From Candidatus Gottesmanbacteria bacterium UBA6580 (lineage in GTDB: Bacteria; Patescibacteriota; Microgenomatia; UBA10105; UBA927), in contig DJJA01000004.1 in assembly GCA_002433895.1 (NCBI GenBank), positions 24,132 through 88,131 of the forward strand: 64,000 nt of DNA. The letters run 5' to 3'. The translations under genes were made by a program, and so were the position numbers. The notes under the pieces were generated by a model. The model made no database searches. It worked only from the letters and a program-made list of their open reading frames with translations, and was not told where the DNA came from. This document shows positions 18,139 to 52,544 of this stretch, one piece after another. How positions within the stretch are numbered: position 1 is the first letter of the stretch; the number at the start of each line of letters is the position of its first letter.

Positions 18139-21100
18139 TTATTTCGGCTGTTTTTTGACAAATGATATTTCCAGTTTATCGCCGGAGATATCGATGCGTC
18201 CTGCCTGCCACTGTTGATTGATGCGGCCATTGATGTGATCAAGTACCAATCCATTGAAATTATTAAGACTGTTGCGTATGGTGCCTTCGGCGAGCCGGAA
18301 GAGCATCGGGAGTTTGATGTTTAAAGTATTTTTATCAACAATCAATCCCTTGGTCGGATCGGTGATAAGCGTGCCGGAAAATTGCGCTTCTCCAAGTTTT
18401 GCGCCTGCTACTTTTATTTTTGCGGTCATATCTTCCAGTTTGACCCGGTTACCGAGAAGGGTAATACGGCCTCCTGTAATTCTGGTACCTGCCATATCAA
18501 CAGATGATTTGACGTAGTCCATAAGCTCGTTGCTGGTAAACTGCACTTTTGCTTCTGACTCTTTGCTTCTGCTGACGACATAGTTAATCCGATCATCAAC
18601 ACCCTCAGGGAGGGGAGCTTCTGGCTTTGGTGTTTCTGGTGTTCCTGCTTGTTCTGGTTGATTGGCTTCGTTTACCTCCGGTGAACTGATAGAAGATGCG
18701 ACTGTTTCGGTGGTAGGCGTTTCGACTATTGATGCTTCCGCGTTTTCACCCGCCATGCTTTCGAGGTGTTCGCGGGATGTTTCCGGGGCTTTTGGGGTCG
18801 CCGCGACGATTTCAGGTGCGGTTGTTTTTGCGTATGCTTCGATGTCGGGGGCAACCGACATATTTGCGCCAAGATTAGTGGTATCAAGGAGGTTCACCTT
18901 ACCATCTTTGAGTTCGTAGGTGAGACCCAGTGAGTCTAAGGCGCGGGTAAAGTATCCATTAAACCGTTCGGGATGCCCGCTTTTCAGTGACGGATACATG
19001 TGTTCGTACATGTTGGTAAGATGCGTTTCCAAATGTTCTTTGGTAAATTGTTCGCTGGCAATTTTACCCATTTCTTCCCAGGTCATATTTTTATACACTT
19101 CATTATTTTCAAGCGGTGCTGCCGGTTCAGCTAATCCGAGCTGTTGAAGTTGCATATAGATGGTTTCTTTGGGATCCATAGTGGCAGTCAGGGTGGGAAG
19201 CACAGTCGCGACGTCAGGCGTGCCGCGTGCTTCGGTGATCATCCACGCAAGCTCCCGTTCTTCAAGAAATGGTGATGTTTGATTGTATCCGCCGACTGCA
19301 GCAAGTGTGCCTGCACGTACCGCAAGATTGCCTTGGAATACCGCCGGTACGCTTTGTGCCTCTCCGTGCCGGACAAGCGCATCAAACACTTCAAACGCTC
19401 GGTGATGGGCAAATAACATTGGGTACGTCGCGTATGTTTCCGGGGGTAGTTGATATGTGCCGCTTACCATATCAAGCGTGGGATTGGCATCAAGCGCGTC
19501 AACAATACTTGAAAGATATGTGGCTTCTATTGGTTTGCCAGTGCTGTTTTCTGCAATTATTACCGCTTCCGGGGCTTCTGCCGGCCGTGAAGCAAGGCGT
19601 GATAGGGTGAAATTGGTCATGTCGCGTTTTACCTGGCCACTCGTTGGCGCATTCTGATATTCGCGGGTGACATACACGACCTGCATATCCGGGTGCTCTG
19701 TTTTAAAGCGTTCGATTTCTGCTTTTGTGTTTCCGGGTAACGTTTGATTGACGGAGCCGGTGGGCGGGGTGACGGTCGCTTCGTAGATCACAAATTCCGT
19801 ACGCTTCGGGTCAATCGGTGTGCCATCAGCATTGGTTTGCCCAGCATAGTTATTGAGGCGGTCGTAAATAGTGCTGCCATTTTGTACGAGCGGAATTGTT
19901 ACTACCGCGCGGACATCGGGGTGTACTGCCGGATTTTCCTGTGCTTTCAGGTCTTCGAGCATTTGTGTCTCCTCAGGAGACAATGCGCCGAGGTACCAGT
20001 CAATTTCTTCACGTTCATTGAGTTTCGCTTGTGGATTTTCTTTCAGCCGAGGTGATGTGCGCGCTGCAAGTGCTTCACGATTGATAAATACTTCTTCATA
20101 GCCAAACGGACTTAACAACATATCTCCCGAAAGTGCGTTGGGTGCTAAACTTTCGACTGGTAGTGCTTCTAAGACATGGCGATACGGGATAAATATCGGT
20201 ACCCACGGGATTTCCGGTGCAGGTGTGCCCGGTATCACGGTTGTTTCGACGTTGTAGGGAATATCCAATGGCTTCGCCGCAAGGATTTGACCCATAGGCG
20301 CGTTATCGGTGTGCACTTCTGTCAGTGTAAACTGATGAATGGGTATGATTTTTTCCGGCACGGCTGGTGCGACAACCTCGGGGGAGCTGGTTGTTTCCGT
20401 TACGCCAAGTTTATGAAGAAGTGGTGCCAACTCAGCTTCGGTGGGTAGGTCAGCGTCCCGGCCAAAATATCCCATGCGGAGGAGTAGTGCATCTATTTTG
20501 TCCTGTTCCGATCCTTTTTCTAATATCGCGAGCACTTCCATGGGACCTTTACCGGTTGCCGCTATCTCCTGATACCGGTCAATCGCGGCATTATTAAGTT
20601 CACTGAATTGTTTAATTGCTTCCGGGCTGAAAAATTCCTTCGGTACACTGATATGCGCATCATTAGGAATTCGTGCAATATCAAACTCTTTTACCGCGGT
20701 ATCGCCAAACGTCGCGTCACGGAGATGGAGTATGTGTTCTGATGGGCTTTTTCCATCACCGAGTGTAATATTTTTGGGTATTCCTTCACTGTCATGGGGC
20801 ACCATATGTTGTTCATATAGTCGGAAAAGATTTTTCAGACCGTTGGTCGTGGCAACTTTGTTTTCGCCTTCAGCTCTGTCCATGAAATAGTTCCACAGTC
20901 CGCCCTCGCGGAGGTCGCTGCCGCGGATCTCCATCATCTGACCAGCAGCAGGTGCTTCAGGAGAGGATGGGAGCACGGTCGGAAGTTCGGCGGATAATCT
21001 TACTCGGCTTACTTCAGGGGTTTCCCATTTTAAACCGTGCGCGTTAAGTTCATTGGTGATGCGGGTAATCTCTGCTGGGGTGCCTTTGAGTTCACCGGTA

Positions 21101-24042
21101 TCGGTAAACTCCAGGACAGTGACTGCCTTGTTATCGGCGTCAATGAGTTGCCAATTCTGTTGACCTGCGGCGTGCACCAGGCGGTAGCCATCAGGAAGTT
21201 TCGCGGTGAGTGCTGCATCATTTGGTGCAGTGAGATCAGGGATTGTGACGACTTTTTGTGTGCCTTCTATAATATCGCCTGCTTTATGTGGTTCAACAAA
21301 CGTGAGCCCCGCCTTTTCTAGCGTTTTGCGAACCTGATCCTCGGTCATATTGGTTCCTAACACTACGTCTTCTTGACCCCGGAGGTTGGCAATAAGACTT
21401 TGGTCAAATTTTGCGTCATATAGTACTTTGCCGGTACTGTCTGTGTGAGGTATGAGTGTTAGTTCTTTCGGTAATTGATACGGTACCTGATGCGCGGCAT
21501 CGGGTCCCAGCGATACGACGTGGTCGGCGCTTGGCGGAGAAAGTTCGATATGCGCGGTACCAGTAGCGTGCGCTTTGTCACTCAACTCCGCAGCTCCCTG
21601 CGTGATCGTGTCGCCATGACCAATTTGAGCAATTCCCTGTACCGCTACGCCGACTGCGGCGCCTACAACTCCTGCCTTTACGCCGTATTTGACCGCTTCG
21701 ACGCGTGCTTCTGCTTTGAACTCTTCGAGTATCGCATCAAGCCCCATGGCTTTTTCTTCACCACTTAATGCTTTGGATGCAAACGGCCATCGGCGTTTGA
21801 CGATGTCAACCTCCGGCGCATACGAAGATATGAGATTAAGGGTGAGTTTAATGGGGTCATCGAGCGCATCGAGGGTGTTGACCCCTTCCCGCAATACTTG
21901 CGTTTGGCTTACGGTGAGCTTTTCCATAAACTCTGGGAAGGTGTTGCCGCCTAAGACTGTTGCTGATTGTTCGGCATGGGTTGATAAATAGGCGTCGAGA
22001 TCTGCAAGCGCTTTGTTAGCAGTGAGGTCAAGTGCCGCGCGTTCGCTTTCGATGGTTTCGCGGCTGGAAAACTGTATCATACCAATTCTTTTTGGTCCTG
22101 TTTCACTGACGGCCTTCCTCGCGTGGAGATCGGCAACGGTTGCAAACGCGCTTCGCAGCTCGTCATCAGTCAGATTTGCTTTGAGTACATCGTTTTCATA
22201 GAGTGTTGTCGTAAGGCTTCCCATCATTTCATCTGCCCGGCGTTGTTTGACGGCAAATTTTTCAAACCACGCCCTGCGCTTTTGTGTTTCGGTAAATTGG
22301 GCGCCAGTTTCGCGTTCGCGTAGATGCGTCATGTAATCCTTGTTGAGCTGTCCATATTCGCGCCAGCCGGCAAATAGACCTCCTGCCAGGGCACCACCGG
22401 TAAGGCTCCCGAGTGGACCCGTAATGCTCGCAACTGCTTTAAACGGTGCGGTTTTCAGGAAATTGACGGCAGAGAGCGTCAGTGCCACGCCGGAACCAAT
22501 CGTCGCTTCGTTGAAGAGCAAGGGAACAAGAACATTCTTTTTGTTAAGCCATTCGGCGATTTCCCGGATTTGTCCCACTCCTTTTTCAACTGCTGTGGGC
22601 TCCAGGCTCGTGACTTCTCCCATCTGTCCCAGACCTAGCCTAATCTGCATGCCGGCGATTGCTTCGTCTATATTGGCTAGTCCTGCCTCATGGGACATTT
22701 TCGTGCGTAAGGTTTCTGCTACCTCATACAGGCTCGAACTATATAGTTCTGCCTCAGCAAAAATATCCGGGCGGGTGTCTTTGAGTGTAGCTTTGAAGAA
22801 TTCTTTTGTTCGATTATCAAATTCGGTTTTGTCTGCTATCTCGCCACTCGCATACTGTTTGAGGAGTGTTTGTATTCCTTCTACCAGCGGCTTATGTTCT
22901 TCTTTTGTGGGGTCTAATATCTCCAATTTCTCACCGAGTTGTGTCCGTATAAATTGGTCGGCATTTTCAAGATCTGTTCCAAATCGGGCTCGAACCGCTT
23001 TTGCTTCGCGCTCGAATGTTTCTAAGCCTTTGATTTCTCCCGTTAGACGCATGGCGCCGATTTCTTCGAGTGCCATGGTTTGGATACTCGTCCGCATGCC
23101 GACTTTATCTTTCAGCCAGTCAGCAGCTCTCGTTCCTGCCCGCACAAGAAAGTTTGCATCGGCTAGTTTGTTGTTATATCGGTCTGTGGCACGGCGTTCG
23201 GCCATCCGTATTGCTTCTTCGGCAAACGGGGTTTCTGCCGTCTTTAACATATCCATGTAGTACTGCCGGCTTTTTTCGTGGAAGTAGATACCGCCGATAC
23301 TTTGTTTCCATACGTTGGTAAAGACAAATTCATGGATGCCATGCACGGCCTCCTTCGTCTTTTCCCAGAGATTACGATTGGCCGTCGCTCTCGCTTCAGC
23401 ACTCGGGCTGGATAGCTTCTGCATGCTGCGGTCAGCAAGATCCAGTGCCCTCGTTTCGTATGCCTTAAGACCAACAATAGTGATGGTGTTGGGGTCTTCC
23501 TTGAGCGTTTCCAGAATTTCTCGTGCGTCTTTGGTTGGCGTAGGTGTTGGTGCTTCAGGAGTTGCGGGTGCTGGCTGCTCAACTGAAGGCTGTCCGGTGA
23601 CTACCGGTGCTTCCACCGGCGTTTCCGTTGCGGTGACCGGTGCACCAGTGGCTTCAGGAGCCTTGGGAGTAGGCGTGGCAGTTGTTTTGGGCTCCAGCGA
23701 AAGCGATTCCTTGGTGATAATATGCGGCGTACCCGCTTCATCGGTCCACTGTACTCCCGAGAGTTTGTCCCAGGGGATTTCATCAAACGCGTTAACATTC
23801 GTGAGCGGCTTATCGATGAGCTTGCCTTCTTCACCCTTTTTGCGGCTGGCTTCTTTGACAAGAGGGACAGCGCTTCCGACGCCATCGTTGGCTCGTTTAT
23901 CGGCGCCAAGAATAGTGATATAGCTGATTTCTTTGCCCGTGATTTGCTGCGGGGTGGTGAGATAAATAGCCGTTTCACCCACGATAATCGATTGCGGCTT
24001 GGGAGCTTCGGGTGATTGTGGTGTTGGATGTGGTTCTGCCAT
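18139..24042 (-). CDS. Giant (1967 aa) acidic hypothetical protein, no recognisable catalytic motifs
   Basis: Uninterrupted 5.9-kb ORF with an acidic N-terminal third (…TPEAPTPTPTKDAREILETLKEDP…). The overlapping antisense ORFs are low-complexity and judged spurious. Confidence 0.75.
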   Translation of the reverse strand: MAEPHPTPQSPEAPKPQSIIVGETAIYLTTPQQITGKEISYITILGADKRANDGVGSAVPLVKEASRKKGEEGKLIDKPLTNVNAFDEIPWDKLSGVQWTDEAGTPHIITKESLSLEPKTTATPTPKAPEATGAPVTATETPVEAPVVTGQPSVEQPAPATPEAPTPTPTKDAREILETLKEDPNTITIVGLKAYETRALDLADRSMQKLSSPSAEARATANRNLWEKTKEAVHGIHEFVFTNVWKQSIGGIYFHEKSRQYYMDMLKTAETPFAEEAIRMAERRATDRYNNKLADANFLVRAGTRAADWLKDKVGMRTSIQTMALEEIGAMRLTGEIKGLETFEREAKAVRARFGTDLENADQFIRTQLGEKLEILDPTKEEHKPLVEGIQTLLKQYASGEIADKTEFDNRTKEFFKATLKDTRPDIFAEAELYSSSLYEVAETLRTKMSHEAGLANIDEAIAGMQIRLGLGQMGEVTSLEPTAVEKGVGQIREIAEWLNKKNVLVPLLFNEATIGSGVALTLSAVNFLKTAPFKAVASITGPLGSLTGGALAGGLFAGWREYGQLNKDYMTHLRERETGAQFTETQKRRAWFEKFAVKQRRADEMMGSLTTTLYENDVLKANLTDDELRSAFATVADLHARKAVSETGPKRIGMIQFSSRETIESERAALDLTANKALADLDAYLSTHAEQSATVLGGNTFPEFMEKLTVSQTQVLREGVNTLDALDDPIKLTLNLISSYAPEVDIVKRRWPFASKALSGEEKAMGLDAILEEFKAEARVEAVKYGVKAGVVGAAVGVAVQGIAQIGHGDTITQGAAELSDKAHATGTAHIELSPPSADHVVSLGPDAAHQVPYQLPKELTLIPHTDSTGKVLYDAKFDQSLIANLRGQEDVVLGTNMTEDQVRKTLEKAGLTFVEPHKAGDIIEGTQKVVTIPDLTAPNDAALTAKLPDGYRLVHAAGQQNWQLIDADNKAVTVLEFTDTGELKGTPAEITRITNELNAHGLKWETPEVSRVRLSAELPTVLPSSPEAPAAGQMMEIRGSDLREGGLWNYFMDRAEGENKVATTNGLKNLFRLYEQHMVPHDSEGIPKNITLGDGKSPSEHILHLRDATFGDTAVKEFDIARIPNDAHISVPKEFFSPEAIKQFSELNNAAIDRYQEIAATGKGPMEVLAILEKGSEQDKIDALLLRMGYFGRDADLPTEAELAPLLHKLGVTETTSSPEVVAPAVPEKIIPIHQFTLTEVHTDNAPMGQILAAKPLDIPYNVETTVIPGTPAPEIPWVPIFIPYRHVLEALPVESLAPNALSGDMLLSPFGYEEVFINREALAARTSPRLKENPQAKLNEREEIDWYLGALSPEETQMLEDLKAQENPAVHPDVRAVVTIPLVQNGSTIYDRLNNYAGQTNADGTPIDPKRTEFVIYEATVTPPTGSVNQTLPGNTKAEIERFKTEHPDMQVVYVTREYQNAPTSGQVKRDMTNFTLSRLASRPAEAPEAVIIAENSTGKPIEATYLSSIVDALDANPTLDMVSGTYQLPPETYATYPMLFAHHRAFEVFDALVRHGEAQSVPAVFQGNLAVRAGTLAAVGGYNQTSPFLEERELAWMITEARGTPDVATVLPTLTATMDPKETIYMQLQQLGLAEPAAPLENNEVYKNMTWEEMGKIASEQFTKEHLETHLTNMYEHMYPSLKSGHPERFNGYFTRALDSLGLTYELKDGKVNLLDTTNLGANMSVAPDIEAYAKTTAPEIVAATPKAPETSREHLESMAGENAEASIVETPTTETVASSISSPEVNEANQPEQAGTPETPKPEAPLPEGVDDRINYVVSRSKESEAKVQFTSNELMDYVKSSVDMAGTRITGGRITLLGNRVKLEDMTAKIKVAGAKLGEAQFSGTLITDPTKGLIVDKNTLNIKLPMLFRLAEGTIRNSLNNFNGLVLDHINGRINQQWQAGRIDISGDKLEISFVKKQPK

Positions 24043-27381: not shown

Positions 27382-28665
27382 ATGGCAACATCAAATTTTA
27401 CAAAAACTGTATTACCAAATGGCGTCCGTCTCATCCTCGTGCCGGTGCCCGGAGTAAACAGCATCGCGACCGCGGTCATGGTGGGTGTAGGAAGTAGGTA
27501 TGAAACGCCGGCAATTAGCGGCATCTCCCATTTTCTCGAGCACATGGTGTTTAAAGGTACGGAAAAATATCCGACGACTGACGACGTCAACACTATTGAG
27601 CGTGCGGGAGGGCTGCAAAACGCGTATACCGATATTGATATTACGAACTACCACAACAAAGTACTGAGTGAAGATTGGCGCCTTGCATTGGAAATAAACA
27701 AAGAGCTTGCCATTAAGCCCCGAATACCTAGCGAGTGGGTGGATAAAGAGCGTGATGTGATACTAGAGGAAATGAAGCGGTACGAAGATGAACCAGCAAG
27801 TAAGGTAGAAGAAGCATATCATGCATTGTTGTACCCCAATAGCAAATTGGGTATGCGCACGATTGGCGAAGAAGCAAGTTTGCGTTCGGTGGGTGCTCAA
27901 GAGCTCCGTAATTACCATGACGAATGGTACGCGCCGGAGCGCATGGTAGTGATCCTTTCAGGTAATGTGCGTGGCAACGAGAAAAAAATTCATGAGCAGG
28001 TCGGCGAATGGTTTGCCGCGTTGCCGGCGAAAAAAACCGGGGATATAGAAGTAGTTACTCCACAGCAAAAGGCGCCGCAACTTACCGTTGTGACTAAGCC
28101 GGACGCAGCACAGGCACACCTTATTGTGGGGCTTCGTGCATTTGCGCGCGGCAGTGAAGACCGGTTTGCGTGGAGTTTGTTTAATCTGGTCATGGGAGTA
28201 TCGTTTACGAGTAGATTATTTAAAGAAATCCGTGAGAAGCGAGGGCTTTGCTATCACATCCGGAGCAGTAATGCAGCGTACGCTGATGTAGGGAGCTGGG
28301 ATATTTACGCGGGGGTCGCGACAAATAAAGTAGAAGAAGCGACGAAGGCTATTATCGAAGAGCTCGGGAAGGCAAAAGCTGCAGGAATAACTGAAGAAGA
28401 GTTGGTTGTTGCGAGGAAACGGCTTAAAACTATTTTAGCGTTCAAAAGTGAAGACCCTGAGTTTTGGAGTGAATGGTATGGGCGTGCGGAAGTGTTCGGG
28501 ATGCCCCTCATGACGCTCGAAGAGTATATCGAAAAGATAGAAAAGGTAACAATCCAAGACATTAACGCGCTTATTGGGAAATATTTTATTACCCAAAGTC
28601 TCAATATGTCGTTGGTGTGGAGTAAGCCGCGTGAAGAAAAACTTCTTGCCCTTCTTTCACTGTGA
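27382..28665 (+). CDS. M16-family zinc metallopeptidase (pitrilysin/insulinase-like)
   Basis: Inverted zinc-binding motif HFLEHMVFKGT (HxxEH…E) near the N-terminus. The overall two-domain length fits M16. Start taken at MATSNFTKTVLPNGVRLILVP, the internal Met of ORF 27289..28665. Confidence 0.85.
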   Translation: MATSNFTKTVLPNGVRLILVPVPGVNSIATAVMVGVGSRYETPAISGISHFLEHMVFKGTEKYPTTDDVNTIERAGGLQNAYTDIDITNYHNKVLSEDWRLALEINKELAIKPRIPSEWVDKERDVILEEMKRYEDEPASKVEEAYHALLYPNSKLGMRTIGEEASLRSVGAQELRNYHDEWYAPERMVVILSGNVRGNEKKIHEQVGEWFAALPAKKTGDIEVVTPQQKAPQLTVVTKPDAAQAHLIVGLRAFARGSEDRFAWSLFNLVMGVSFTSRLFKEIREKRGLCYHIRSSNAAYADVGSWDIYAGVATNKVEEATKAIIEELGKAKAAGITEEELVVARKRLKTILAFKSEDPEFWSEWYGRAEVFGMPLMTLEEYIEKIEKVTIQDINALIGKYFITQSLNMSLVWSKPREEKLLALLSL

Positions 28666-28704
28666 TCGTTGACCCTGTATTTACTATAGGGTAAAATTTC
28701 CACT

Positions 28705-29337
28705 ATGCAGCCGACAATTATTTCTATTTTAGGGAGGCCGTTGGCCGGGAAAGATACTCAAGCGGTATTGCTTGCCCGGAATATCCCTGACAGTGTGATT
28801 ATTTCGACCGGAGCCATGATCCGGGAGGTAAAAAACGAAGGGGAGTCACACCGGTTTTGGCCGATATTAGGCCCTCATATCGCGGTGATGGACCAGGGGA
28901 TACTGATCCCTGAGGAAGCGATTAACGAAGCATTTGAGCGTGTCGTACATGAAAAATTAGCCGAAGGGGTAAGGAATATCATCGTGACCGCGCATCCGCG
29001 TATGCCCAAAGAATTGGAATCTTATGACAAAATGCTCGCCCGCGAAGGATTAACTGGCGTGTTTGTGCATCTTGAAACGTCTGAACCATATATGTACGCG
29101 ATGGGAGGCACCCGTAATCACGGGAGAGCCGATGACCGGCGAGATGTGTTACACACAAGGGCAAAGGAGTTTACTCTCCATACCGAGCCAGTGTTGCACC
29201 AACTTCGTGCTGAAGGGCGGTTACACACGGTGTTTGCCGAGCGCCCCATTGAAATAGTGCAGCAGGAGTTGCGAAATGTGCTCCGGCCGTACCTTCCTGA
29301 TCCCGAAGCAACTCTTCCCCTCATGGCGCGCCGCTAA
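28705..29337 (+). CDS. Adenylate-kinase-fold NMP kinase-like protein, divergent P-loop (paralogue 1)
   Basis: ILGRPLAGKDTQA replaces the AK consensus GxPGxGKGTQ. ISTGAMIREVKNEG matches the NMP-binding ISTGDMFR motif and MDQGILIPEE matches MDQGxLVPDE. An AHPR occupies the position of GFPR. A GRADDRRD Arg/Asp cluster occupies the LID position. Confidence 0.7.
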   Translation: MQPTIISILGRPLAGKDTQAVLLARNIPDSVIISTGAMIREVKNEGESHRFWPILGPHIAVMDQGILIPEEAINEAFERVVHEKLAEGVRNIIVTAHPRMPKELESYDKMLAREGLTGVFVHLETSEPYMYAMGGTRNHGRADDRRDVLHTRAKEFTLHTEPVLHQLRAEGRLHTVFAERPIEIVQQELRNVLRPYLPDPEATLPLMARR

Positions 29338-29378
29338 CGGCTTGACGTGGGCTTTACTATAGGTTATAATAATATTCT

Positions 29379-30011
29379 GTGCAGCCGATCCTCCTCTCTA
29401 TTATCGGTAAACCACTCGCCGGCAAAGATACACAAGCCGATTTACTTGTGGCAGCCCATCCAGAAGCAGTCAAAATAAGTACCGGACACATCATGCGCGC
29501 CGTGCGTGAAGAAGGGGAAACCCACCGGTTTTGGCCGTTAATCGGTCCGTATATCCCGCTTATGGAACAGGGGTTAAAGTTGCCTGACGCGCCAACGATC
29601 GCGATGCTTGATGCCGTCATCAAAGAGCAGCTTGCCGAAGGGAAGCGTATGCTCGTTATCGCGGGTTCTCCCCGTGGCATGGAGCAGCTCGAAGGATTTG
29701 AAAAAATCGCCAAAGAAACAGGTACGAAGCTCGTACTGGTGCACATGGATGCTACAGATGAAGAAACGTATAAACGGAGTGCCACCCGCAATGAGGGGCG
29801 GGTTGATGACACCCCTGAGGTACACAAAATACGTCTTCATGAATATGAAGGGTACGTGGGACCCATGGTAGACGCGCTTGCCCGCGAAAACAGACTCATA
29901 TGGGTAAACGGTATGCAGCCGGTTGAAGGAGTATTCCGTGAGTTGCAACAGCAGTTGCGGCAACATGTGTTGGATCCCGAAATCACGCTTCCCGCGATGG
30001 CGCGGCGATAA
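29379..30011 (+). CDS. Adenylate-kinase-fold NMP kinase-like protein, divergent P-loop (paralogue 2, tandem)
   Basis: It has the same length (210 aa) as the neighbour and is about half identical to it: IIGKPLAGKDTQA, ISTGHIMRAVREEG, MEQGLKLPD, GSPRG, GRVDDTPE. Confidence 0.7.
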   Translation: MQPILLSIIGKPLAGKDTQADLLVAAHPEAVKISTGHIMRAVREEGETHRFWPLIGPYIPLMEQGLKLPDAPTIAMLDAVIKEQLAEGKRMLVIAGSPRGMEQLEGFEKIAKETGTKLVLVHMDATDEETYKRSATRNEGRVDDTPEVHKIRLHEYEGYVGPMVDALARENRLIWVNGMQPVEGVFRELQQQLRQHVLDPEITLPAMARR

Positions 30012-30033
30012 TCTCGGGTTTCCCGTGATATTC

Positions 30034-30276
30034 TCACCGTTGTGGCAGTTGGATTTTCCTGTCTAACCGCTGCTGCCGTGGGTGAAATCCATGGCGTTCA
30101 ATCTCTTCCAGTGAAGCAATCCGGAGACCATGTTTTTCAAAATATGCCTGAAGTGCGGGCCGGATAGTTGCAGGATCAACACCCCGGTTAACGATATCAC
30201 TTATGTCCGCGGTATGCGCTACGCCATAGTGGTCAAAAACAAGTATGGTGTTGCCGGGTATCACTTCGTGCATCAT
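30034..30276 (-). CDS. Small hypothetical protein
   Basis: 80-aa ORF. Weak support. Confidence 0.3.
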   Translation of the reverse strand: MMHEVIPGNTILVFDHYGVAHTADISDIVNRGVDPATIRPALQAYFEKHGLRIASLEEIERHGFHPRQQRLDRKIQLPQR

Positions 30277-30294
30277 CAGCTATCATGATAGCAC

Positions 30295-30648
30295 TTAGCG
30301 ATTCCCACGTTTGGAGAATTGTTGATATTTATTGTGGTGAGTACGCTGTTGGCGCCGTGGGTTTAACAACGAGCGGAGATCAGTAGCACTGTCTCCGTTT
30401 GATCTGCGCGCGCGCAGTATCTGCTGGACGGCGTTTCCGTCGAGAGACGCGGCTTCTGTGGCGTATCCTTCCCGGTACGAGGTGACACCCATGGCGCCCA
30501 TTTGTGAGGCGATAAACCGTGATACGCGCATGCGATAGCCTGCTTCCGACTCGGTAAAATGTTTAGACGGTACTTCTAGTTCTATCGTCCGTTCCCGCTC
30601 ACCGATTGTGGCAATGATCCGTTGTTTCGGCATCGTGATTATCGTCAC
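30295..30648 (-). CDS. Hypothetical protein
   Basis: 117-aa ORF. No motifs recognised. Confidence 0.35.
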   Translation of the reverse strand: MTIITMPKQRIIATIGERERTIELEVPSKHFTESEAGYRMRVSRFIASQMGAMGVTSYREGYATEAASLDGNAVQQILRARRSNGDSATDLRSLLNPRRQQRTHHNKYQQFSKRGNR

Positions 30649-30719
30649 AGTACGCTGTTATTCCCCGTCAAATCAAGATATGTTGTTTGGAAAAAATATC
30701 TGGTATACTCATAAGTCCT

Positions 30720-31139
30720 ATGAATGAACAAACCGTCGTCTTGATCAAGCCAGATGGCATGGAAAAGCATGTCGTTGGAGAGATTATTACCCGTTTTGAA
30801 AAAGCAGGTATGAAGCTCGCCGCCCTCAAATTAGTACAACTGACCCAGCCAATCCTCGACACATGGTATGCCCATCACAAGGATAAGCCGTTTTTCCCTG
30901 AGCTTTCGAAGCAAATGATGTCGACTCCGGTGGTAGCGATGGTATTAGAAGGAGATGGAGTGATACAGAAAGTATTTGATATTTGTGGTCCTACTGATCC
31001 AGCAGAAGCTGCTCCCGGTACCATCCGCCATGATTTCGGCGTTGATAAGCCACACAATGTCGTGCACCGGTCAGACAGTGCCGAGGCTGCAGCCAAAGAA
31101 ATCGGACTGTTGTTTGCCGCTTCTGACCTTCATTCATAA
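30720..31139 (+). CDS. ndk: Nucleoside diphosphate kinase
   Basis: MNEQTVVLIKPDGMEKHVVGEIITRFEKAGMKL… with the active-site His signature NVVHRSD (NxxHGSD). Length is about 140 aa. The tracked ORF (30687..) begins at an upstream TTG, and the ATG at 30720 is more plausible. Confidence 0.9.
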   Translation: MNEQTVVLIKPDGMEKHVVGEIITRFEKAGMKLAALKLVQLTQPILDTWYAHHKDKPFFPELSKQMMSTPVVAMVLEGDGVIQKVFDICGPTDPAEAAPGTIRHDFGVDKPHNVVHRSDSAEAAAKEIGLLFAASDLHS

Positions 31140-31160: not shown

Positions 31161-31189
31161 TTGATTGAGCATGTAGTCTGCGGTATAAT
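31161..31189 (+). promoter_or_regulatory. Near-consensus sigma70-type promoter (TTGATT-17 nt-TATAAT)
   Basis: TTGATTgagcatgtagtctgcggTATAATgtacacATG. The -10 element ends 6 nt before the ATG at 31196, implying a leaderless transcript. Confidence 0.4.
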
Positions 31190-31195
31190 GTACAC

Positions 31196-31435
31196 ATGCG
31201 TATACCCTTCACGAAAATACATATTTCTTTGCCAAAGCGCACATCCGCGCGGGCAGAGCTTGATAACGTAGCGCGTCAGCTTCAGGCCGAGGAGGCGGAG
31301 CGTATACGACGTGGTCTAAAGGGTCAAGCGCCAACTGAGGCATCTCTTCGTCGGGGTAGGCGGTTGGCAAAGCAAACTGAAGGAAAGTGGAAAGAAAATA
31401 GAGAAAATGCAGGTTCGCGTGAGTCCATATGGTAA
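31196..31435 (+). CDS. Small basic hypothetical protein (79 aa), possibly leaderless
   Basis: The ORF starts immediately after a consensus -10 element. Confidence 0.35.
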   Translation: MRIPFTKIHISLPKRTSARAELDNVARQLQAEEAERIRRGLKGQAPTEASLRRGRRLAKQTEGKWKENRENAGSRESIW

Positions 31436-35727: not shown

Positions 35728-36378
35728 TTACACGATGATTTTTATCGTGCGGAGAACAGGGAGGAGGACTTCAAAAGGAAGTCCGATGACATTGGTGTAT
35801 GAACCATCGACTTTAGTCACTAAATCCCATGGTGTTTCGTTTAACGCGTAACCCGCAGCAAACCGGGTGAAATCATAGCGTGTGACATAGCTTTCGAGTT
35901 CCGGTCCGGTCATTTTGCGGAGTGCAACCTTGGTTGTAACGGTCTTTGTCCAGGATTTTTTTACTTTACCCTTGTCGAGGTATACGATATGGATGACGGT
36001 CGTAAATACGTGGGTTTTCCCCATGAGTTCTTTGAGCATTTTAGCAGCATCAACCCGGTCAATTGCTTTGCCATACATTTTCTTGCCGAGGATTGCCATG
36101 CTATCTGCCGCAATCACCACGACTTCACGATCTTCAGGAACCATGTAGACGCGGGGATTATTGACGACTTCAAGCGCTTTGGCGATGGCGCGTTTTTGAA
36201 TAGTTTTTAACGGGTTTGGATCAGTTATTTTGTCTTCATCAACACGTGTCACTGCGACGCGGAACCTGATGCCGAGTTTTTCGAGAAGCGTCCGTCTGCC
36301 AATAGACTGAGAAGCAAGGATAACATCCGGGGCAAGCACGATATCAGCCTGATTTTTTGAGGAAAACGATAACTTCAT
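35728..36378 (-). CDS. maf: Maf-family nucleoside triphosphate pyrophosphatase (septum formation protein Maf)
   Basis: N-terminal VILASQSIGRRTLLEKLGI (ILASxSPRRxELL). C-terminal …FAAGYALNETPWDLVTKVDGSYTNVIGLPFE (G.Y.IQ…NVxGLP). Confidence 0.85.
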   Translation of the reverse strand: MKLSFSSKNQADIVLAPDVILASQSIGRRTLLEKLGIRFRVAVTRVDEDKITDPNPLKTIQKRAIAKALEVVNNPRVYMVPEDREVVVIAADSMAILGKKMYGKAIDRVDAAKMLKELMGKTHVFTTVIHIVYLDKGKVKKSWTKTVTTKVALRKMTGPELESYVTRYDFTRFAAGYALNETPWDLVTKVDGSYTNVIGLPFEVLLPVLRTIKIIV

Positions 36379-50552: not shown

Positions 50553-52544
50553 TTGGTACAGGCTAAAGGGTTTGGGAGCCTGCCTGACATGCCCAAAACA
50601 TACACCGTTAAAGAAGTCGCCGATATCTTAGGATTTAGCACCAATAGCATCTACGCGTTTCTCAAAGAAAAGCGGATTCGTGGTGTGCGTATCGGTAAGG
50701 GGAGATTTAGAATTCCGGAAGAAGAACTATCCCGCATACTGCATTTATCCAAAAAACCGGTTGGCGTGCCTGTGGCGGCAGCCCCAGTTGCGAGTGCCGA
50801 GGCCTCTGCAACTTCAGTCATAGGCTCGTCTGTTGATGCGTTGTCACCAACCGGTGACGCGGTGTTTATAGAACCGAAGTATTCGGACGCCGGTAAGATG
50901 CGGGGAGATTTGCTTGCCCCGAATATATTTGATTGGTTTATCGGCTTAGGCGCATTGGTTGCTGGGGTGGCGCTGTTTCTGTTTAATACAACCTTTACTG
51001 CTGAAGAATTTCCGCGGATGACACTCATGTATCCGGTTATCCGGATTGTACTTATCGCATGTGGTTTTGGTGTGATCATGAGTTGTGTATTTCCCAAGGC
51101 TGGTGGTTGGCGGCGGGTATTCCATCTCACACTTTCTGTATTGGGGTTTATTAACGCGTTTGGGTTAATAAAAAGCGGGGATATCGAAGGGGGCGCATTG
51201 TATGGGGCTATGGCAGTGATGATTTTACTTGAGAATTTTGTGCGATTTGGCGGCATTGTTGCAATTGGCTTGTATGTATCTTTGATTGCGATTCTCGTGC
51301 CCGCAGTGATATTGTTTTTCCCCATAGATTCCCATGTGAGTGCGCTCTCTGCGGTGACAGGCGTGCCGGCACTTATCATCGGAATTGTTTCGCTTGTTGT
51401 CTCGATAGCACTCTTGATACTGTTTTGGCTGGGTTACGCAGGAAATAGGAAGCTTTTCTTGTTGGCTGCATGGCTACTATCCATTGGTGATGTCGCCGTT
51501 GCACTCTGGTATGCACATCTCCAGTACTGGAGCAGATCATTTTTTATCCTTGTAGTGGGAATGTTCACCGCGCTTTTACCGTACTGGTGGCCGTTACAGC
51601 AGCAATTGGCACGCCGCTACAAGCTTTTGCTCCACGGATTGTTTGTTGTCATTAGTGCTGTGTTTGTACTCGCCGTGCTGGTAGTGTATTTATTGCAGCA
51701 AAGTATATGGGCTGTCCGTGAACGTGAGGCGATGAATAAACTGCACGTCGCGCATACAAGGCTCACGAACGCAACCTCATCTATTCAGGGCTCTCTGGAG
51801 GTTGCATCGAGCAACATTGACTTCGTCAAGTCGATGAGTAAGCCTGATATAGCGACACTCAATAAATATAGCAAGATTATTTACGAAAGTAATCCGAATA
51901 TCCGCCGGCTCGTTTTCTTGGATGAGTATGGGCAGGGTATTGCGCTGTACCCGTATGGCACGTTTGATGAACCGAATTTTTCGTACCGTGATTATTTTCA
52001 ACAAACCAAGAATACCGGAAAATCATATATATCCGATGTATTTCAGGCAAAGTCCGATCAGTCGGGCAGATTTGTGGTGGTCATTGCGACCCCACTCCTT
52101 GATGCTGGTGCATTTACCGGAGTGGTGACCGCATCGATGGATTTGGAGCGTATTGGCTTTTTGCTCAGCCAGGTTGCCGCTGGCGGGCAAGGGGAATATT
52201 TCGTTGTCGTGGACGCCCGAGGGGTCATTCTTAGTCATCCGAACGAGAAGCTTATCGGTTCTGTAGTGCCATCATCAGATCCGTTGCACCGGGCGCTGAA
52301 GGGTGAAGAGGGCATAGTAAAAGGCATGATGATTGAGGGTATGCTTGGCATGATGGGGTATGTCTATATTCCGGAGCTTCGGTGGGCGATTAGCTTACGC
52401 GCTCCTGCCGCAAAAATAGTTGGATTGTCTTCTGAGGAAATATGGATTGTCTTCGGGGTGGTATGTGTACTTATTGGCGCAGGGATAACTGTCATTTCTT
52501 ATATAAGGAGCAGGGCGTATGCAGGTAAAGAGGGGGGTCCCTGA
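50553..52544 (+). CDS. Membrane sensor with N-terminal excisionase/MerR-type HTH, multi-TM region and periplasmic Cache-like domain
   Basis: [43 protein letters not shown] is an excisionase-family HTH. At least 8 hydrophobic helices follow. After them lies a Cache-like extracytoplasmic region (…[39 protein letters not shown]…) and a final TM. The stop overlaps the start of the next gene (TGATG). Confidence 0.65.

What the first reader, a model, noticed from the sequence alone, without database searches (positions are those of the whole stretch)
28705..30011. Tandem adenylate-kinase-fold paralogues with a glycine-depleted P-loop inside a nucleotide-metabolism neighbourhood
Two 210-aa genes, about 50% identical, retain AK landmarks (ISTG(A/H)(M/I)(I/M)R…EG NMP-binding site, MDQG/MEQG, an Arg/Asp-rich LID). 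They replace the invariant GxPGxGKGTQ with G(R/K)PLAGKDTQ, losing two glycines and inserting Asp after the Lys. They also replace GFPR with AHPR/GSPRG. They sit between an M16 peptidase and ndk, with maf nearby. They may be NMP kinases of altered specificity such as GMP/CMP/UMP or dNMP, phosphotransferases using a different donor, or pseudokinases. Duplication plus divergence of a core essential fold is notable in a small genome.
Basis: partly seen in the sequence, partly recalled or inferred. Interest (0 to 1): 0.6.

Follow-up and report, generated by a model that had tools for sequence, protein, structure and literature searches.

The report
Adenylate-kinase paralogues with relocated magnesium-anchoring aspartate
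Two neighbouring genes in a tiny Candidatus Gottesmanbacteria genome encode apparently working adenylate-kinase-type enzymes whose odd ATP-binding loop is typical of a whole clade of such bacteria, in which the acidic residue that holds the catalytic magnesium seems to have moved to a new position.

Summary
Two 210-aa genes (28705-29337 and 29379-30011, + strand) are 43% identical, not ~50%. Both have an adenylate-kinase (AK) fold and a G(R/K)PLAGKDT P-loop, and they lie between an M16 peptidase gene and ndk.

The P-loop is lineage-typical. All 229 GKD-type AK domains examined lack the Mg2+-anchoring Asp84 of canonical AKs. 233 of 264 GKG-type domains keep it, and GKD plus Asp84 never co-occur. 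I infer that the Mg2+ anchor moved to the Walker-A position after the lysine.

Neither protein looks like a pseudokinase. All phosphate-binding Arg/Asp residues are kept, pN is far below pS, and the structure models are confident (pLDDT 91-92).

P2 is the ancestral copy, present in all ~13 related species, with AMP/ATP-contact residues intact. P1 comes from an old tandem duplication kept in only some species. It evolves about 2.4 times faster and has fixed Gln92Glu and Arg119Met/Leu, which suggests shifted substrate or donor preference.

Each gene has its own promoter carrying a conserved ACTATAGG element.

Whether a canonical adk also exists in this genome could not be tested. A cultivated relative has one in its ribosomal operon.

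Verdict: new variant of a known kind, moderate interest.

The parts
28705..29337 (+). P1: 210-aa AK-fold kinase, clade B, a lineage-specific tandem duplicate
   Evidence: ORF. Pfam ADK 40.4 bits against a gathering score of 26.8. AF2 pLDDT 91.8. Best PDB match is M. tuberculosis AK 2cdn, TM 0.89. Falls in clade B of the tree. pN 0.086 against pS 0.73 versus the L013 orthologue.
29379..30011 (+). P2: 210-aa AK-fold kinase, clade A, the ancestral copy present in every related species
   Evidence: ORF with GTG start. Pfam ADK 55.6 bits. AF2 pLDDT 91.2. Foldseek top hits are all adenylate or UMP kinases. It is the single copy in L011/L012, L017, L018 and L020-L024. pN 0.037 against pS 0.60.
28732..28758 (+). 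P1 Walker A, GRPLAGKDT (E. coli G10 to L, G14 to D)
   Evidence: Translation. Clade-wide conservation.
29406..29432 (+). P2 Walker A, GKPLAGKDT
   Evidence: Translation. L 89/89 and D 89/89 in clade A.
28987..29001 (+). P1 TAHPR, equivalent to DGFPR. Asp84 is Thr and Arg88 is kept.
29661..29675 (+). P2 AGSPR, equivalent to DGFPR. Asp84 is Ala and Arg88 is kept.
29011..29013 (+). P1 Glu103, at the position of the adenine-N6-reading Gln92. P2 keeps Gln at 29685-29687.
   Evidence: Glu in 11/12 clade B sequences, Gln in 89/89 clade A sequences. Role of Gln92 from PMC3369945.
29101..29103 (+). P1 Met133, at the position of Arg119, which stacks on the ATP adenine. P2 keeps Arg at 29775-29777.
   Evidence: Leu/Met/Phe in 12/12 clade B sequences, Arg in 89/89 clade A sequences. 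Role of Arg119 from PMC11313852.
28849..28863 (+). P1 HRFWP, a family-specific insertion in the NMP-binding domain. The P2 equivalent is at 29523-29537.
   Evidence: His49 is invariant and R50, F51, W52 are at least 90% conserved. The segment aligns as an insertion relative to E. coli, M. tuberculosis and human AK1.
29299..29334 (+). P1 C-terminal tail DPEATLPLMARR, an extension beyond the AK fold
   Evidence: Conserved in clades A, B and C. Low model confidence, pLDDT 66.
29973..30008 (+). P2 C-terminal tail DPEITLPAMARR
   Evidence: D199, P200, E201, L204, P205, A208, R209 and R210 are at least 90% conserved. pLDDT 63. The broad clade often ends in ER[RK].
28669..28697 (+). Promoter-like site for P1: TTGACC, 17 nt, TAAAAT, with ACTATAGG at 28683-28690. 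The -10 hexamer ends 7 nt before the ATG.
29342..29370 (+). Promoter-like site for P2: TTGACG, 17 nt, TATAAT (11/12 match), with ACTATAGG at 29356-29363. The -10 hexamer ends 8 nt before the GTG.
   Evidence: The element sits at a fixed offset in all Gottesmanbacteria loci.
27382..28665 (+). Upstream neighbour: M16 peptidase, a conserved synteny partner
   Evidence: Pfam Peptidase_M16 and M16_C. tblastn places it upstream of the AK genes in every locus where it was found, 12 listed.
30720..31139 (+). Downstream neighbour: nucleoside-diphosphate kinase (ndk), a conserved synteny partner
   Evidence: Pfam NDK. Synteny.

Best explanation
Both genes encode catalytically competent, short-LID nucleoside-monophosphate kinases of the adenylate-kinase family. 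They belong to a clade found across Candidatus Microgenomatia and other CPR/Patescibacteria.

In this clade the Walker A motif reads GxxxxGK-D-T instead of GxxGxGK-G-T. The Asp at the end of strand beta-3 (E. coli Asp84 of DGFPR), which normally anchors Mg2+ through two water molecules, is always missing.

Inferred mechanism: the carboxylate that positions Mg2+-ATP has moved to the residue after the P-loop lysine. That is the position where classical P-loop NTPases use Ser or Thr to ligate Mg2+. The rest of the AK machinery is unchanged: Lys13, Arg36, Arg88, Arg123, Arg156, Arg167, Asp158 and Asp159.

P2 is the ancestral, universally retained copy. It sits between the M16 peptidase gene and ndk and keeps the residues that contact AMP and ATP (Thr31, Gln92, Arg119). 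It most likely catalyses ATP + AMP <-> 2 ADP and feeds Ndk.

P1 comes from an old tandem duplication that included the promoter. Only some species kept it. It is under purifying selection but evolves about 2.4 times faster. It has fixed Gln92Glu, Arg119Met/Leu, Gly85Ala, Phe86His and Lys28Ile. It is therefore most likely a sub- or neo-functionalised kinase with a changed preference for acceptor base or phosphate donor.

Shown: fold, family, residue conservation, the covariation, synteny, duplication history and selection.

Inferred: the Mg2+-anchor relocation, the substrates and the physiological role.
For: Family and fold:
- Pfam ADK scores above the gathering threshold for both proteins, and no other kinase family matches at E <= 1.
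- PDB sequence hits are adenylate and UMP-CMP kinases.
- AF2 pLDDT is 91.2 and 91.8. Foldseek TM is 0.78-0.89 to M. tuberculosis AK, AK1-type AKs and UMP kinases.

Catalytic residues:
- K13, R36, R88, R123, R156, D159 and R167 are 89/89 in clade A and D158 is 88/89. All are conserved in at least 11/12 clade B sequences.

Covariation:
- D14 occurs in 207/207 aligned GKD-clade proteins and none has D84.
- The single GKG protein among the 46 closest single-domain relatives (P0245) has DGFPR.
- Independent case: the C-terminal domain of Bacteroidota tandem-AK fusions has Lys84, and some members have GKD.

Why loss of D84 needs compensating:
- D84A lowers E. coli AK kcat from 330 to 1.8 per second and Mg2+ is no longer seen in the crystal. 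D84 is 88% conserved in bacterial AKs (PMC11313852).

Precedent:
- A GKD Walker A exists in two active NMP-kinase-fold enzymes, T4 dNMP kinase 1DEK and human phosphomevalonate kinase 3CH4.

P2 is ancestral and P1 is a duplicate:
- Single P2-type copy in 8 of 13 species, and conserved M16-AK-ndk synteny.
- Three monophyletic clades in the tree.

Selection:
- P1 pN 0.086 / pS 0.73 and P2 pN 0.037 / pS 0.60, similar to the flanking M16 and ndk genes.

P1-specific changes and their known roles.
Against: - No biochemical data exist for any member.
- Most GKD sequences may descend from one ancestor. The covariation therefore rests on few independent events: the CPR clade, the P0245 double reversal, the Bacteroidota C-terminal domains, and possibly Saccharibacteria L027.
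- The Bacteroidota C-terminal domains look degenerate (RPYD instead of RxDD) and may be inactive. That weakens them as evidence for functional compensation.
- Glu at position 92 can still accept a hydrogen bond from adenine N6, so P1 may simply remain an AMP kinase.
- NCBIfam adk equivalog scores are far below their cutoffs (71-85 bits against 187).
- A cultivated Microgenomatia bacterium has a canonical adk in rplO-secY-adk-infA. P2 may therefore not be the housekeeping Adk, and its true substrates are open.
Confidence: 0.6

Rival explanations
1. P2 is simply this lineage's one and only housekeeping adenylate kinase. The canonical adk was lost from the ribosomal operon and replaced by the GKD-type paralogue. 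The variant loop would then be mere lineage drift in the essential enzyme, and P1 a spare copy.
For: - P2-type is present as a single copy in every related species and is strongly conserved.
- It keeps all AMP and ATP contact residues.
- JGI annotates orthologues as adenylate kinase.
- Streamlined ~1-Mb genomes rarely keep redundant enzymes.
- No canonical adk was seen in the window or in about 400 kb of related loci.
Against: - The only cultivated Microgenomatia genome (OT8) has a canonical adk between secY and infA.
- GKD-clade genes were never in the secY-map slot in the contexts inspected outside the Gottesmanbacteria M16-ndk block.
Confidence: 0.3
2. The two proteins are accessory NMP kinases with non-adenylate roles. 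Candidates are UMP/CMP or (d)NMP kinases, or NTP:AMP phosphotransferases that use a donor other than ATP. They would work alongside a canonical Adk to process nucleotides scavenged from a host.
For: - TIGR01359 (UMP-CMP kinase family) scores nearly as well as adk models: 76.6 against 85.3 bits for P2.
- UMP/CMP kinases are among the best structural matches.
- P1 has lost the ATP-adenine-stacking Arg119 and changed Gln92.
- OT8 lacks Gmk and carries unclassified extra NMP kinases.
- The GKD loop is shared with the broad-specificity T4 dNMP kinase.
Against: - P2 and 96 of 98 broad-clade proteins keep Gln92. Thr31 is kept in 80/89 clade A and 92/98 broad-clade sequences. UMP-CMP kinases have Ala31 and Asn92.
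- Glu92 in P1 would repel guanine or hypoxanthine O6 and still suits adenine N6 (inference from PMC3369945).
- All scores are far below the TIGR01359 cutoff of 207.6.
Confidence: 0.25
3. The Asp after the P-loop lysine does not replace Asp84. The clade simply tolerates a poorly anchored Mg2+ and so has slow AKs, or it uses another residue or metal. Asp17 would then have a different role, for example a salt bridge to Lys/Arg28 or a contact with ribose.
For: - E. coli D84A still turns over at 1.8 per second, which could be enough for a slow-growing episymbiont.
- Position 28, the brace of Asp84 in canonical AKs, is Lys or Arg in clade A (86/89) and in the broad clade (75/98). It could pair with Asp17.
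- No structure is available.
Against: - The covariation is perfect in both directions, including the P0245 double reversal.
- The residue after the lysine is the universal Mg2+-ligand position of Walker A NTPases (established knowledge).
- Clade B lost Lys28 but kept Asp17 in 12/12 sequences.
Confidence: 0.25
4. One or both proteins are pseudokinases, or decaying copies with a regulatory or structural role only.
For: - The P-loop has lost two glycines and the DGFPR Asp.
- P1 has also lost Arg119 and Lys28.
- NCBIfam equivalog thresholds are not met.
Against: - The Walker A Lys and Thr, all five catalytic Arg and the LID Asp pair are conserved.
- pN/pS is about 0.06-0.12.
- GxxxxGK remains a standard Walker A.
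- GKD loops work in T4 dNMP kinase and human phosphomevalonate kinase.
- The models are confident.
Confidence: 0.05

Closest known systems
Short-LID bacterial adenylate kinase (e.g. Mycobacterium tuberculosis Adk, PDB 2CDN/1P4S; NCBIfam NF001381)
   Same: Same fold and domain order: CORE, NMP-binding domain and a short LID without a zinc knuckle. TM is 0.88-0.89 and rmsd 1.8-2.2 A. It shares K13, T15, Q16, the ISTG...R36 motif, P87-R88, R123, R156, D158, D159 and R167. P2 also shares T31, Q92 and R119.
   Different: - G10 is Leu and G14 is Asp in the P-loop.
- Asp84 is Ala or Thr.
- Gln/His28 is Lys (P2) or Ile (P1).
- There is a 5-6 residue HRFWP insertion in the NMP-binding domain.
- There is a conserved 12-residue C-terminal tail, DPEITLPAMARR.
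- Sequence identity is only 25-30%, and scores are under half of the equivalog cutoffs.
- The genes are not in the secY-map operon slot.
Broad GKD/TGFPRT clade of AK-like proteins in Microgenomatia and other CPR bacteria (e.g. 'hypothetical protein A2955_03410', Candidatus Woesebacteria; annotated as adenylate kinase family or nucleoside monophosphate kinase)
   Same: GK-D-T Walker A, no Asp84, Lys/Arg28, an aromatic-rich insertion in the NMP-binding domain, a basic C-terminal tail (ER[RK]), a short LID and all catalytic Arg residues. The window proteins are a sub-branch of this clade.
   Different: - The Gottesmanbacteria sub-branch fixes Leu at G10, where the broad clade has Ser, Gly, Ala or Cys.
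- It replaces TGFPRT by AGSPR, TAHPR or (V/I)GGPR.
- It has HRFWP and DPEITLPxMARR.
- It sits in a fixed M16-AK-ndk block and has been duplicated.
Eukaryote-type UMP-CMP kinases (TIGR01359; PDB 1TEV, 1UKY, 2UKD)
   Same: AK family, short LID, comparable structural similarity (TM 0.81-0.88), and similar HMM scores.
   Different: UMP-CMP kinases have GKGTQ and DGFPR, plus Ala31 and Asn92 for pyrimidine recognition. P2 has Thr31 and Gln92. P1 has Thr31 and Glu92.
Phage T4 deoxynucleotide monophosphate kinase (gp1, PDB 1DEK) and animal phosphomevalonate kinase (PDB 3CH4)
   Same: NMP-kinase-fold enzymes whose Walker A carries Asp directly after the lysine: GVKRSGKDT and GKRKSGKDF. They show that a GKD loop is compatible with phosphoryl transfer.
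   Different: There is no detectable sequence relationship beyond the P-loop, and no Pfam match to those families at E <= 1. Their substrate-binding domains and substrates differ.
Bacteroidota 389-aa tandem adenylate-kinase fusions (e.g. P0322, P0337)
   Same: The second AK domain has lost Asp84 (Lys84), and in some members it carries GKDTQ. This is an independent co-occurrence of the two changes.
   Different: They are fusion proteins whose N-terminal domain is a canonical AK. The C-terminal domain also lacks the RxDD LID motif and may be non-catalytic.

Membership tests
Adenylate kinase family (Pfam PF00406 ADK) | Profile match above the curated gathering score | tested here: met
   P1 scores 40.4 bits and P2 55.6 bits against a cutoff of 26.8, covering profile positions 1-147 of 151.
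Adenylate kinase family (Pfam PF00406 ADK) | Three-domain AK fold: CORE with five-stranded sheet, NMP-binding domain and LID | tested here: met
   AF2 pLDDT 91.2 and 91.8 with strands and helices in AK order. Foldseek probability 1.00 to dozens of AK structures.
Adenylate kinase family (Pfam PF00406 ADK) | P-loop GxPGxGKGTQ | tested here: not met
   The loop is G(R/K)PLAGKDTQ: G10 to L and G14 to D. The generic Walker A GxxxxGK is intact.
Adenylate kinase family (Pfam PF00406 ADK) | Asp84 of DGFPR, the water-mediated Mg2+ anchor, together with Arg88 | tested here: not met
   Arg88 is present. Asp84 is Thr in P1 and Ala in P2, and is absent in 207/207 clade members.
Adenylate kinase family (Pfam PF00406 ADK) | Catalytic Lys13, Arg36, Arg123, Arg156, Arg167 and the LID Asp158/Asp159 | tested here: met
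   All are present in P1 and P2. In clade A they are 88-89 of 89, and in clade B 11-12 of 12.
Bacterial Adk equivalog (NCBIfam TIGR01351, NF001381 and related) | Score at or above the curated equivalog or subfamily cutoff | tested here: not met
   The best score is NF001381 at 71 bits (P1) and 85.3 bits (P2) against a cutoff of 187. TIGR01351 gives 60.6 and 71.6 against 168.
Bacterial Adk equivalog (NCBIfam TIGR01351, NF001381 and related) | AMP and ATP base-contact residues Thr31, Gln92 and Arg119 | tested here: inconclusive
   P2 has all three. P1 has Thr31 but Glu92 and Met119.
Bacterial Adk equivalog (NCBIfam TIGR01351, NF001381 and related) | Usual gene position between secY and map/infA | tested here: not met
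   The genes lie between an M16 peptidase gene and ndk. Microgenomatia strain OT8 has a separate adk in the secY-infA slot.
Bacterial Adk equivalog (NCBIfam TIGR01351, NF001381 and related) | ATP:AMP phosphotransferase activity; being the sole adk of the genome | not testable with these tools
UMP-CMP kinase family (TIGR01359) | Score at or above the cutoff, and pyrimidine-type NMP site (Ala31, Asn92) | tested here: not met
   Scores are 58.5 and 76.6 bits against a cutoff of 207.6. The proteins have Thr31 and Glu/Gln92.
Cmk / Gmk / Tmk / dNK / PyrH / T4 dNMP kinase / phosphomevalonate kinase families | Profile match to the family | tested here: not met
   At E <= 1 no Pfam family other than ADK, AAA_17, AAA_33 and AAA_18 matches. 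Only the GKD tripeptide is shared with 1DEK and 3CH4.

The most novel reading that the evidence does not exclude
The GKD / no-Asp84 proteins form a mechanistically distinct class of adenylate kinase in CPR bacteria. In this reading Mg2+ is held by a Walker-A carboxylate instead of the beta-3 Asp, and the invariant C-terminal ...ARR tail and the HRFWP insertion act as extra closing or catalytic elements. In Gottesmanbacteria the enzymes would be accessory to a canonical Adk. Together with Ndk they would form a dedicated, co-regulated module (shared ACTATAGG promoter element). That module would disproportionate NDPs scavenged from host RNA into ATP plus AMP, the AMP being drained by the AMP-phosphorylase/RuBisCO pathway. 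AK would then be a primary energy-conserving enzyme, and P1 would be specialised for a different donor or acceptor.
Probability: 0.15. Interest if true: 0.75.

Novelty: new variant of a known kind. Interest (0 to 1): 0.5.

Why it matters
Adenylate kinase is a textbook model for enzyme dynamics and Mg2+-assisted phosphoryl transfer. A 2024 study showed that Asp84 is the gatekeeper for productive Mg2+ geometry, with a roughly 180-fold loss of kcat in D84A.

A large natural clade that always lacks Asp84, and always carries Asp at the P-loop position after the lysine, is a ready-made evolutionary experiment on how that function can be relocated. It yields simple, testable mutant predictions.

It also matters for annotation and metabolic reconstruction of CPR/Patescibacteria. 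These proteins fall below adk equivalog thresholds and are named 'hypothetical' or 'nucleoside monophosphate kinase'. Yet they sit beside ndk in organisms thought to live on host-derived nucleotides, where AK and Ndk reactions may be central to making ATP.

The old duplication, followed by differential loss and fixed changes at base-contact residues, is a clean case of paralogue specialisation in a ~1.2-Mb genome.

Tried and rejected
1. Finding a canonical adk in the same genome. The window and all fetched loci contain none. I also watched the 'longest_contig' column of the homologue searches for a third AK-family protein on the 0.85-1.29-Mb contigs. None appeared, but only the best 120 of 7617 hits are listed, so this proves nothing.

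2. Testing whether GKD-clade genes occupy the secY-adk-map slot. Five contexts checked outside the Gottesmanbacteria M16-ndk block showed variable neighbours (truB, NAD synthase, NUDIX, hrcA/grpE) and never the ribosomal operon.

3. The profile search of 1.84 billion representatives. The top of the list is dominated by multi-AK-domain proteins whose scores add up. Only the single-domain hits were informative.

4. Literature on a CPR-specific AK or on the role of the P-loop Asp in T4 dNMP kinase or phosphomevalonate kinase. Nothing usable was found, so that step remains inference.

5. Reading Gln92Glu in P1 as a switch to GMP. I rejected this because residue 92 faces the purine 6-substituent, so Glu would repel O6 and still fits the adenine N6 amino group.

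6. ACTATAGG as a genome-wide promoter motif. I rejected this because the extended motif ACTATAGGNTA has only two matches in 64 kb, both upstream of the AK genes.

7. The 1.4-kb insert between the copies in L015 holds an unrelated ion-channel-like membrane protein on the opposite strand.

8. dS is near saturation between species, so dN/dS ratios are rough. I therefore quote pN and pS.
Full report
**Observation**

The window carries two adjacent + strand ORFs of 210 codons each: P1 at 28705-29337 (ATG start) and P2 at 29379-30011 (GTG start). BLASTP between them gives 43% identity and 64% positives over the full length with no gaps, E = 1e-60.

These are the Walker A loops GRPLAGKDT and GKPLAGKDT, ISTGAMIR and ISTGHIMR, TAHPR and AGSPR(G), and the LID segments TRNHGRADDR and TRNEGRVDDT. 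The Asp after the lysine is a substitution of E. coli Gly14, not an insertion. The other lost glycine is Gly10, replaced by Leu.

Upstream lies an M16 peptidase gene (27382-28665). Downstream, after two small reverse-strand genes, lies ndk (30720-31139). maf is at 35728-36378 on the minus strand. The rest of the window is mostly glycosyltransferases, mreB, a sortase, PEGA and giant surface-type proteins. It holds no other NMP kinase.

**Family and fold**

Both proteins match Pfam ADK above the gathering score: 40.4 and 55.6 bits against 26.8. No other kinase family appears at E <= 1. NCBIfam adk equivalogs are hit only at 71-85 bits against cutoffs of 152 bits or more. The UMP-CMP kinase family scores nearly as well but is also far below its cutoff.

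The closest solved structures by sequence are short-LID adenylate kinases (Aquifex, M. tuberculosis) and UMP-CMP kinases. AlphaFold2 models are confident: P2 pLDDT 91.2, pTM 0.85; P1 pLDDT 91.8, pTM 0.87. Both show the AK strand and helix order. Foldseek against the PDB returns only adenylate and UMP kinases at the top. The best match for P1 is M. tuberculosis AK 2cdn (TM 0.89, rmsd 1.8 A).

**Organism and distribution**

A search of 5.8 billion proteins with P2 found 98 relatives. The few that carry a source name are labelled Patescibacteria or adenylate-kinase-type (NCBI: 'nucleoside monophosphate kinase'; JGI: 'adenylate kinase (family enzyme)'). A scan of one genome per GTDB species with the peptide pattern G[KR]PL[AS]GKDT found 15 loci. 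Those with informative titles are Candidatus Gottesmanbacteria, in the Microgenomates or class Microgenomatia.

**Duplication history**

The block M16 peptidase - AK gene(s) - ndk - ... - maf - PEGA - mreB is conserved across these species. Every species has a P2-type gene. About eight have only that copy, for example the 996-kb genome in L012.

A neighbour-joining tree resolves three monophyletic clades:
- Clade A is the P2 type and is universal.
- Clade B is the P1 type. It lies upstream of P2 in the window species and L013, and downstream of P2 in L019.
- Clade C is the ISMGD / GGPR type. It is the upstream partner in L014, L015 and L016.

Genomes whose P2 proteins are 85-92% identical carry different partner types. 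The duplications are therefore old and were followed by differential loss.

Both window genes are under purifying selection against the L013 orthologues. P1 has pN 0.086 and pS 0.73. P2 has pN 0.037 and pS 0.60. The flanking M16 and ndk genes give similar values. P1 accumulates amino-acid change about 2.4 times faster.

**The P-loop variant is clade-typical and covaries with loss of Asp84**

In 97 family members, Gly10 is Leu in 96 (one Val). Gly14 is Asp in all 97, and the residue aligned with E. coli Asp84 is never Asp.

A profile search of 1.84 billion cluster representatives found 19,025 AK-like proteins. Among the 46 closest single-domain ones, 45 have GK-D-[TS] and none of those has Asp84; most have TGFPRT. 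The single GKG protein, P0245, has DGFPR.

With more sequences the aligned counts are D14 in 89/89 clade A, 12/12 clade B, 7/7 clade C and 98/98 broad-clade proteins, with no Asp84 in any.

Two further cases may be independent:
- In Bacteroidota 389-aa tandem-AK fusions, the second domain has Lys84, and in some members it has GKDTQ.
- A very divergent Saccharibacteria AK-like protein carries GRPLAGKDTQ.

The broad clade includes a Woesebacteria protein deposited as 'hypothetical protein'.

**Why this matters mechanistically**

In E. coli AK, Asp84 anchors Mg2+ through two water molecules and is braced by Gln28 (His in most AKs). D84A lowers kcat from 330 to 1.8 per second and raises Km from 70 to 470 uM. 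No Mg2+ density is seen in the D84A crystal. Asp84 is 88% conserved in bacterial AKs (PMC11313852). A clade that never has Asp84 therefore needs another way to position Mg2+.

The residue after the Walker A lysine is where classical P-loop NTPases place the Mg2+-ligating Ser or Thr (established knowledge). Canonical AKs have Gly there, and this clade has Asp. Two active NMP-kinase-fold enzymes carry the same GKD loop: T4 dNMP kinase (1DEK, GVKRSGKDT) and human phosphomevalonate kinase (3CH4, GKRKSGKDF).

I infer that the Mg2+ anchor has moved from beta-3 to the P-loop. Position 28 is consistent with a rebuilt second shell. It is Lys in clade A (86/89) and Arg or Lys in the broad clade (75/98). 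I could not measure distances in the models, so this remains an inference.

**Are they active, and on what?**

K13, R36, R88, R123, R156, D159 and R167 are 89/89 in clade A, D158 is 88/89, and T15 is 88/89 with one Ser. All are conserved in at least 11/12 clade B sequences. With the selection data and the GKD precedents, this makes a pseudokinase reading very unlikely.

P2 and clade A keep three base-contact residues:
- Thr31 (80/89).
- Gln92 (89/89), whose OE1 accepts a hydrogen bond from adenine N6 and helps discriminate AMP from GMP (PMC3369945).
- Arg119 (89/89), which stacks on the ATP adenine and nucleates lid closure (PMC11313852).

P2 is therefore predicted to be an ATP:AMP phosphotransferase.

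P1 and clade B have fixed Gln92Glu (11/12), Arg119Leu/Met/Phe (12/12), Gly85Ala (12/12), Phe86His (10/12) and Lys28Ile/Ala/Val. Glu92 can still accept from an exocyclic amino group, as in adenine or cytosine, but would repel O6 of guanine or hypoxanthine. Loss of Arg119 points to a changed donor preference or changed lid kinetics. Which substrates P1 prefers cannot be decided here.

**Is P2 the only adenylate kinase?**

Indirect evidence cuts both ways. On one side, P2 is universal, single-copy in most relatives and AK-like at every contact residue. On the other, the first cultivated member of class Microgenomatia (strain OT8) has a canonical adk (OT_00649) between secY (OT_00648) and infA (OT_00650). 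Its NDK (OT_00387) lies directly beside an M16 peptidase (OT_00388) with no AK gene between them. It has no Gmk, and two 'cytidylate kinases' lack any eggNOG match (bioRxiv 10.64898/2026.06.21.733656).

GKD-clade genes were never seen in the secY-map slot in the contexts inspected. My estimate is about 60% that Gottesmanbacteria also have a canonical adk, which would make P1 and P2 accessory, and about 30% that P2 is the sole Adk.

**Physiological context (inference)**

In OT8 the proposed metabolism cleaves host RNA with PNPase to NDPs and uses Adk and Ndk to redistribute phosphate and make ATP and GTP. About 91% of the RuBisCO-bearing Gottesmanbacteria genomes studied also carry AMP phosphorylase and R15P isomerase. 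AMP is thus drained into glycolysis (PMC6389311). AK genes fixed next to ndk, and duplicated, fit a lineage in which 2 ADP -> ATP + AMP carries unusually high flux.

**Regulatory signals**

Each gene has its own near-consensus promoter-like site. P1 has TTGACC, 17 nt, TAAAAT at 28669-28697. P2 has TTGACG, 17 nt, TATAAT at 29342-29370. The -10 hexamer ends 7-8 nt before the start codon and there is no Shine-Dalgarno sequence, which suggests leaderless transcripts.

The spacer contains ACTATAGG directly 5' of the -10 hexamer. The extended motif ACTATAGGNTA has only these two matches in 64 kb, against 0.06 expected. The 8-mer lies at the same offset upstream of the P2-type gene in all Gottesmanbacteria loci, and upstream of the B and C copies. 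This holds even though synonymous sites are saturated between these species. It is absent from the non-Gottesmanbacteria loci. The duplication therefore included the promoter, and the paralogues are probably co-regulated.

**Other family-specific features**

Two features remain unexplained. One is an HRFWP insertion in the NMP-binding domain, in which His49 is invariant. The other is a 12-residue C-terminal tail, DPEITLPAMARR, which is nearly invariant in all three clades but modelled with low confidence (pLDDT 63-66). It is echoed by ...ER[RK] endings in the broad clade.

**Verdict**

These are real, selected and almost certainly active AK-family kinases. The 'glycine-depleted' loop is a clade-wide variant coupled to loss of Asp84, not a defect.

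The new element is the strict Gly14Asp / Asp84-loss coupling across a large CPR clade, which I did not find described in the literature. The old duplication with changed base-contact residues in P1 adds to it.

Novelty: new variant of a known kind. Interest: 0.5.

Noticed in passing
window 28683-28690 and 29356-29363; loci L011-L026 about 23 nt upstream of each P2-type start: A conserved 8-mer, ACTATAGG, sits directly 5' of the -10 hexamer in the promoters of both AK genes. It keeps a fixed offset in all Gottesmanbacteria species although synonymous sites are saturated. ACTATAGGNTA occurs only at these two places in the 64-kb window. It is possibly an operator or a specialised promoter element, and it resembles the 3' part of the T7 promoter (CACTATAGG), probably by chance.
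   Followed up: partly
window 28697-28705, 29370-29379, 31189-31196: Three strong sigma-70-like -10 hexamers end only 6-8 nt before a start codon (ATG, GTG, ATG), with no Shine-Dalgarno sequence. This suggests leaderless mRNAs in this organism.
   Followed up: partly
window 29299-29334 and 29973-30008: A nearly invariant C-terminal tail, DPE(I/A)TLPxMARR, extends beyond the AK fold in clades A, B and C. Related broad-clade proteins often end in ...ER[RK]. It is modelled with low confidence and its function is unknown. Possibilities include an arginine supplied to the active site or an interaction motif.
   Followed up: partly
window 28849-28863 and 29523-29537: An HRFWP insertion between the two helices of the NMP-binding domain, with His49 invariant and Arg50, Phe51 and Trp52 at least 90% conserved. 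It is absent from canonical AKs. The broad GKD clade has an aromatic-rich insertion of similar length.
   Followed up: no
P0321-P0375, e.g. P0322 and P0337: Bacteroidota 389-aa proteins are tandem fusions of a canonical AK domain and a second AK-like domain. The second domain has Lys in place of Asp84, RPYD in place of the RxDD LID motif, and GKD instead of GKG in some members.
   Followed up: partly
L027 9932-10570: A Saccharibacteria AK-like protein of 212 aa, about 25% identical to P1 and P2, has the identical GRPLAGKDTQ loop but lacks a GFPR-type motif (SSVGRWNGEQQ). It lies next to hrcA-grpE.
   Followed up: no
bioRxiv 10.64898/2026.06.21.733656 supplement (OT_00387/OT_00388); window 27382-31139: The M16 peptidase - ndk adjacency also exists in the cultivated Microgenomatia strain OT8 without any AK gene between them. 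The linkage is therefore older than the AK insertion. The reason for an M16 peptidase - ndk pairing is unknown.
   Followed up: partly
L015 8652-9476 (minus strand); L014 545-2312: In two species a 1.4-1.7 kb insert separates the clade C copy from P2. In L015 it encodes a 274-aa membrane protein with a voltage-sensor-like RLVRILRIFRVF segment.
   Followed up: partly
window 18139-24042 (minus strand) and 52544-61147 (+ strand): Two giant ORFs of 1967 aa and 2867 aa. The first has no Pfam hit on record. The second spans a region of 0.61 GC (54-58 kb) that also carries long open frames in other frames, which suggests repetitive, compositionally biased sequence.
   Followed up: no
window 30034-30276 and 30295-30648 (minus strand): Two small reverse-strand genes of 80 aa and about 112 aa, with no family match on record, separate P2 from ndk in this species. 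The 996-kb relative has a single 54-96 aa reverse gene at this position.
   Followed up: no
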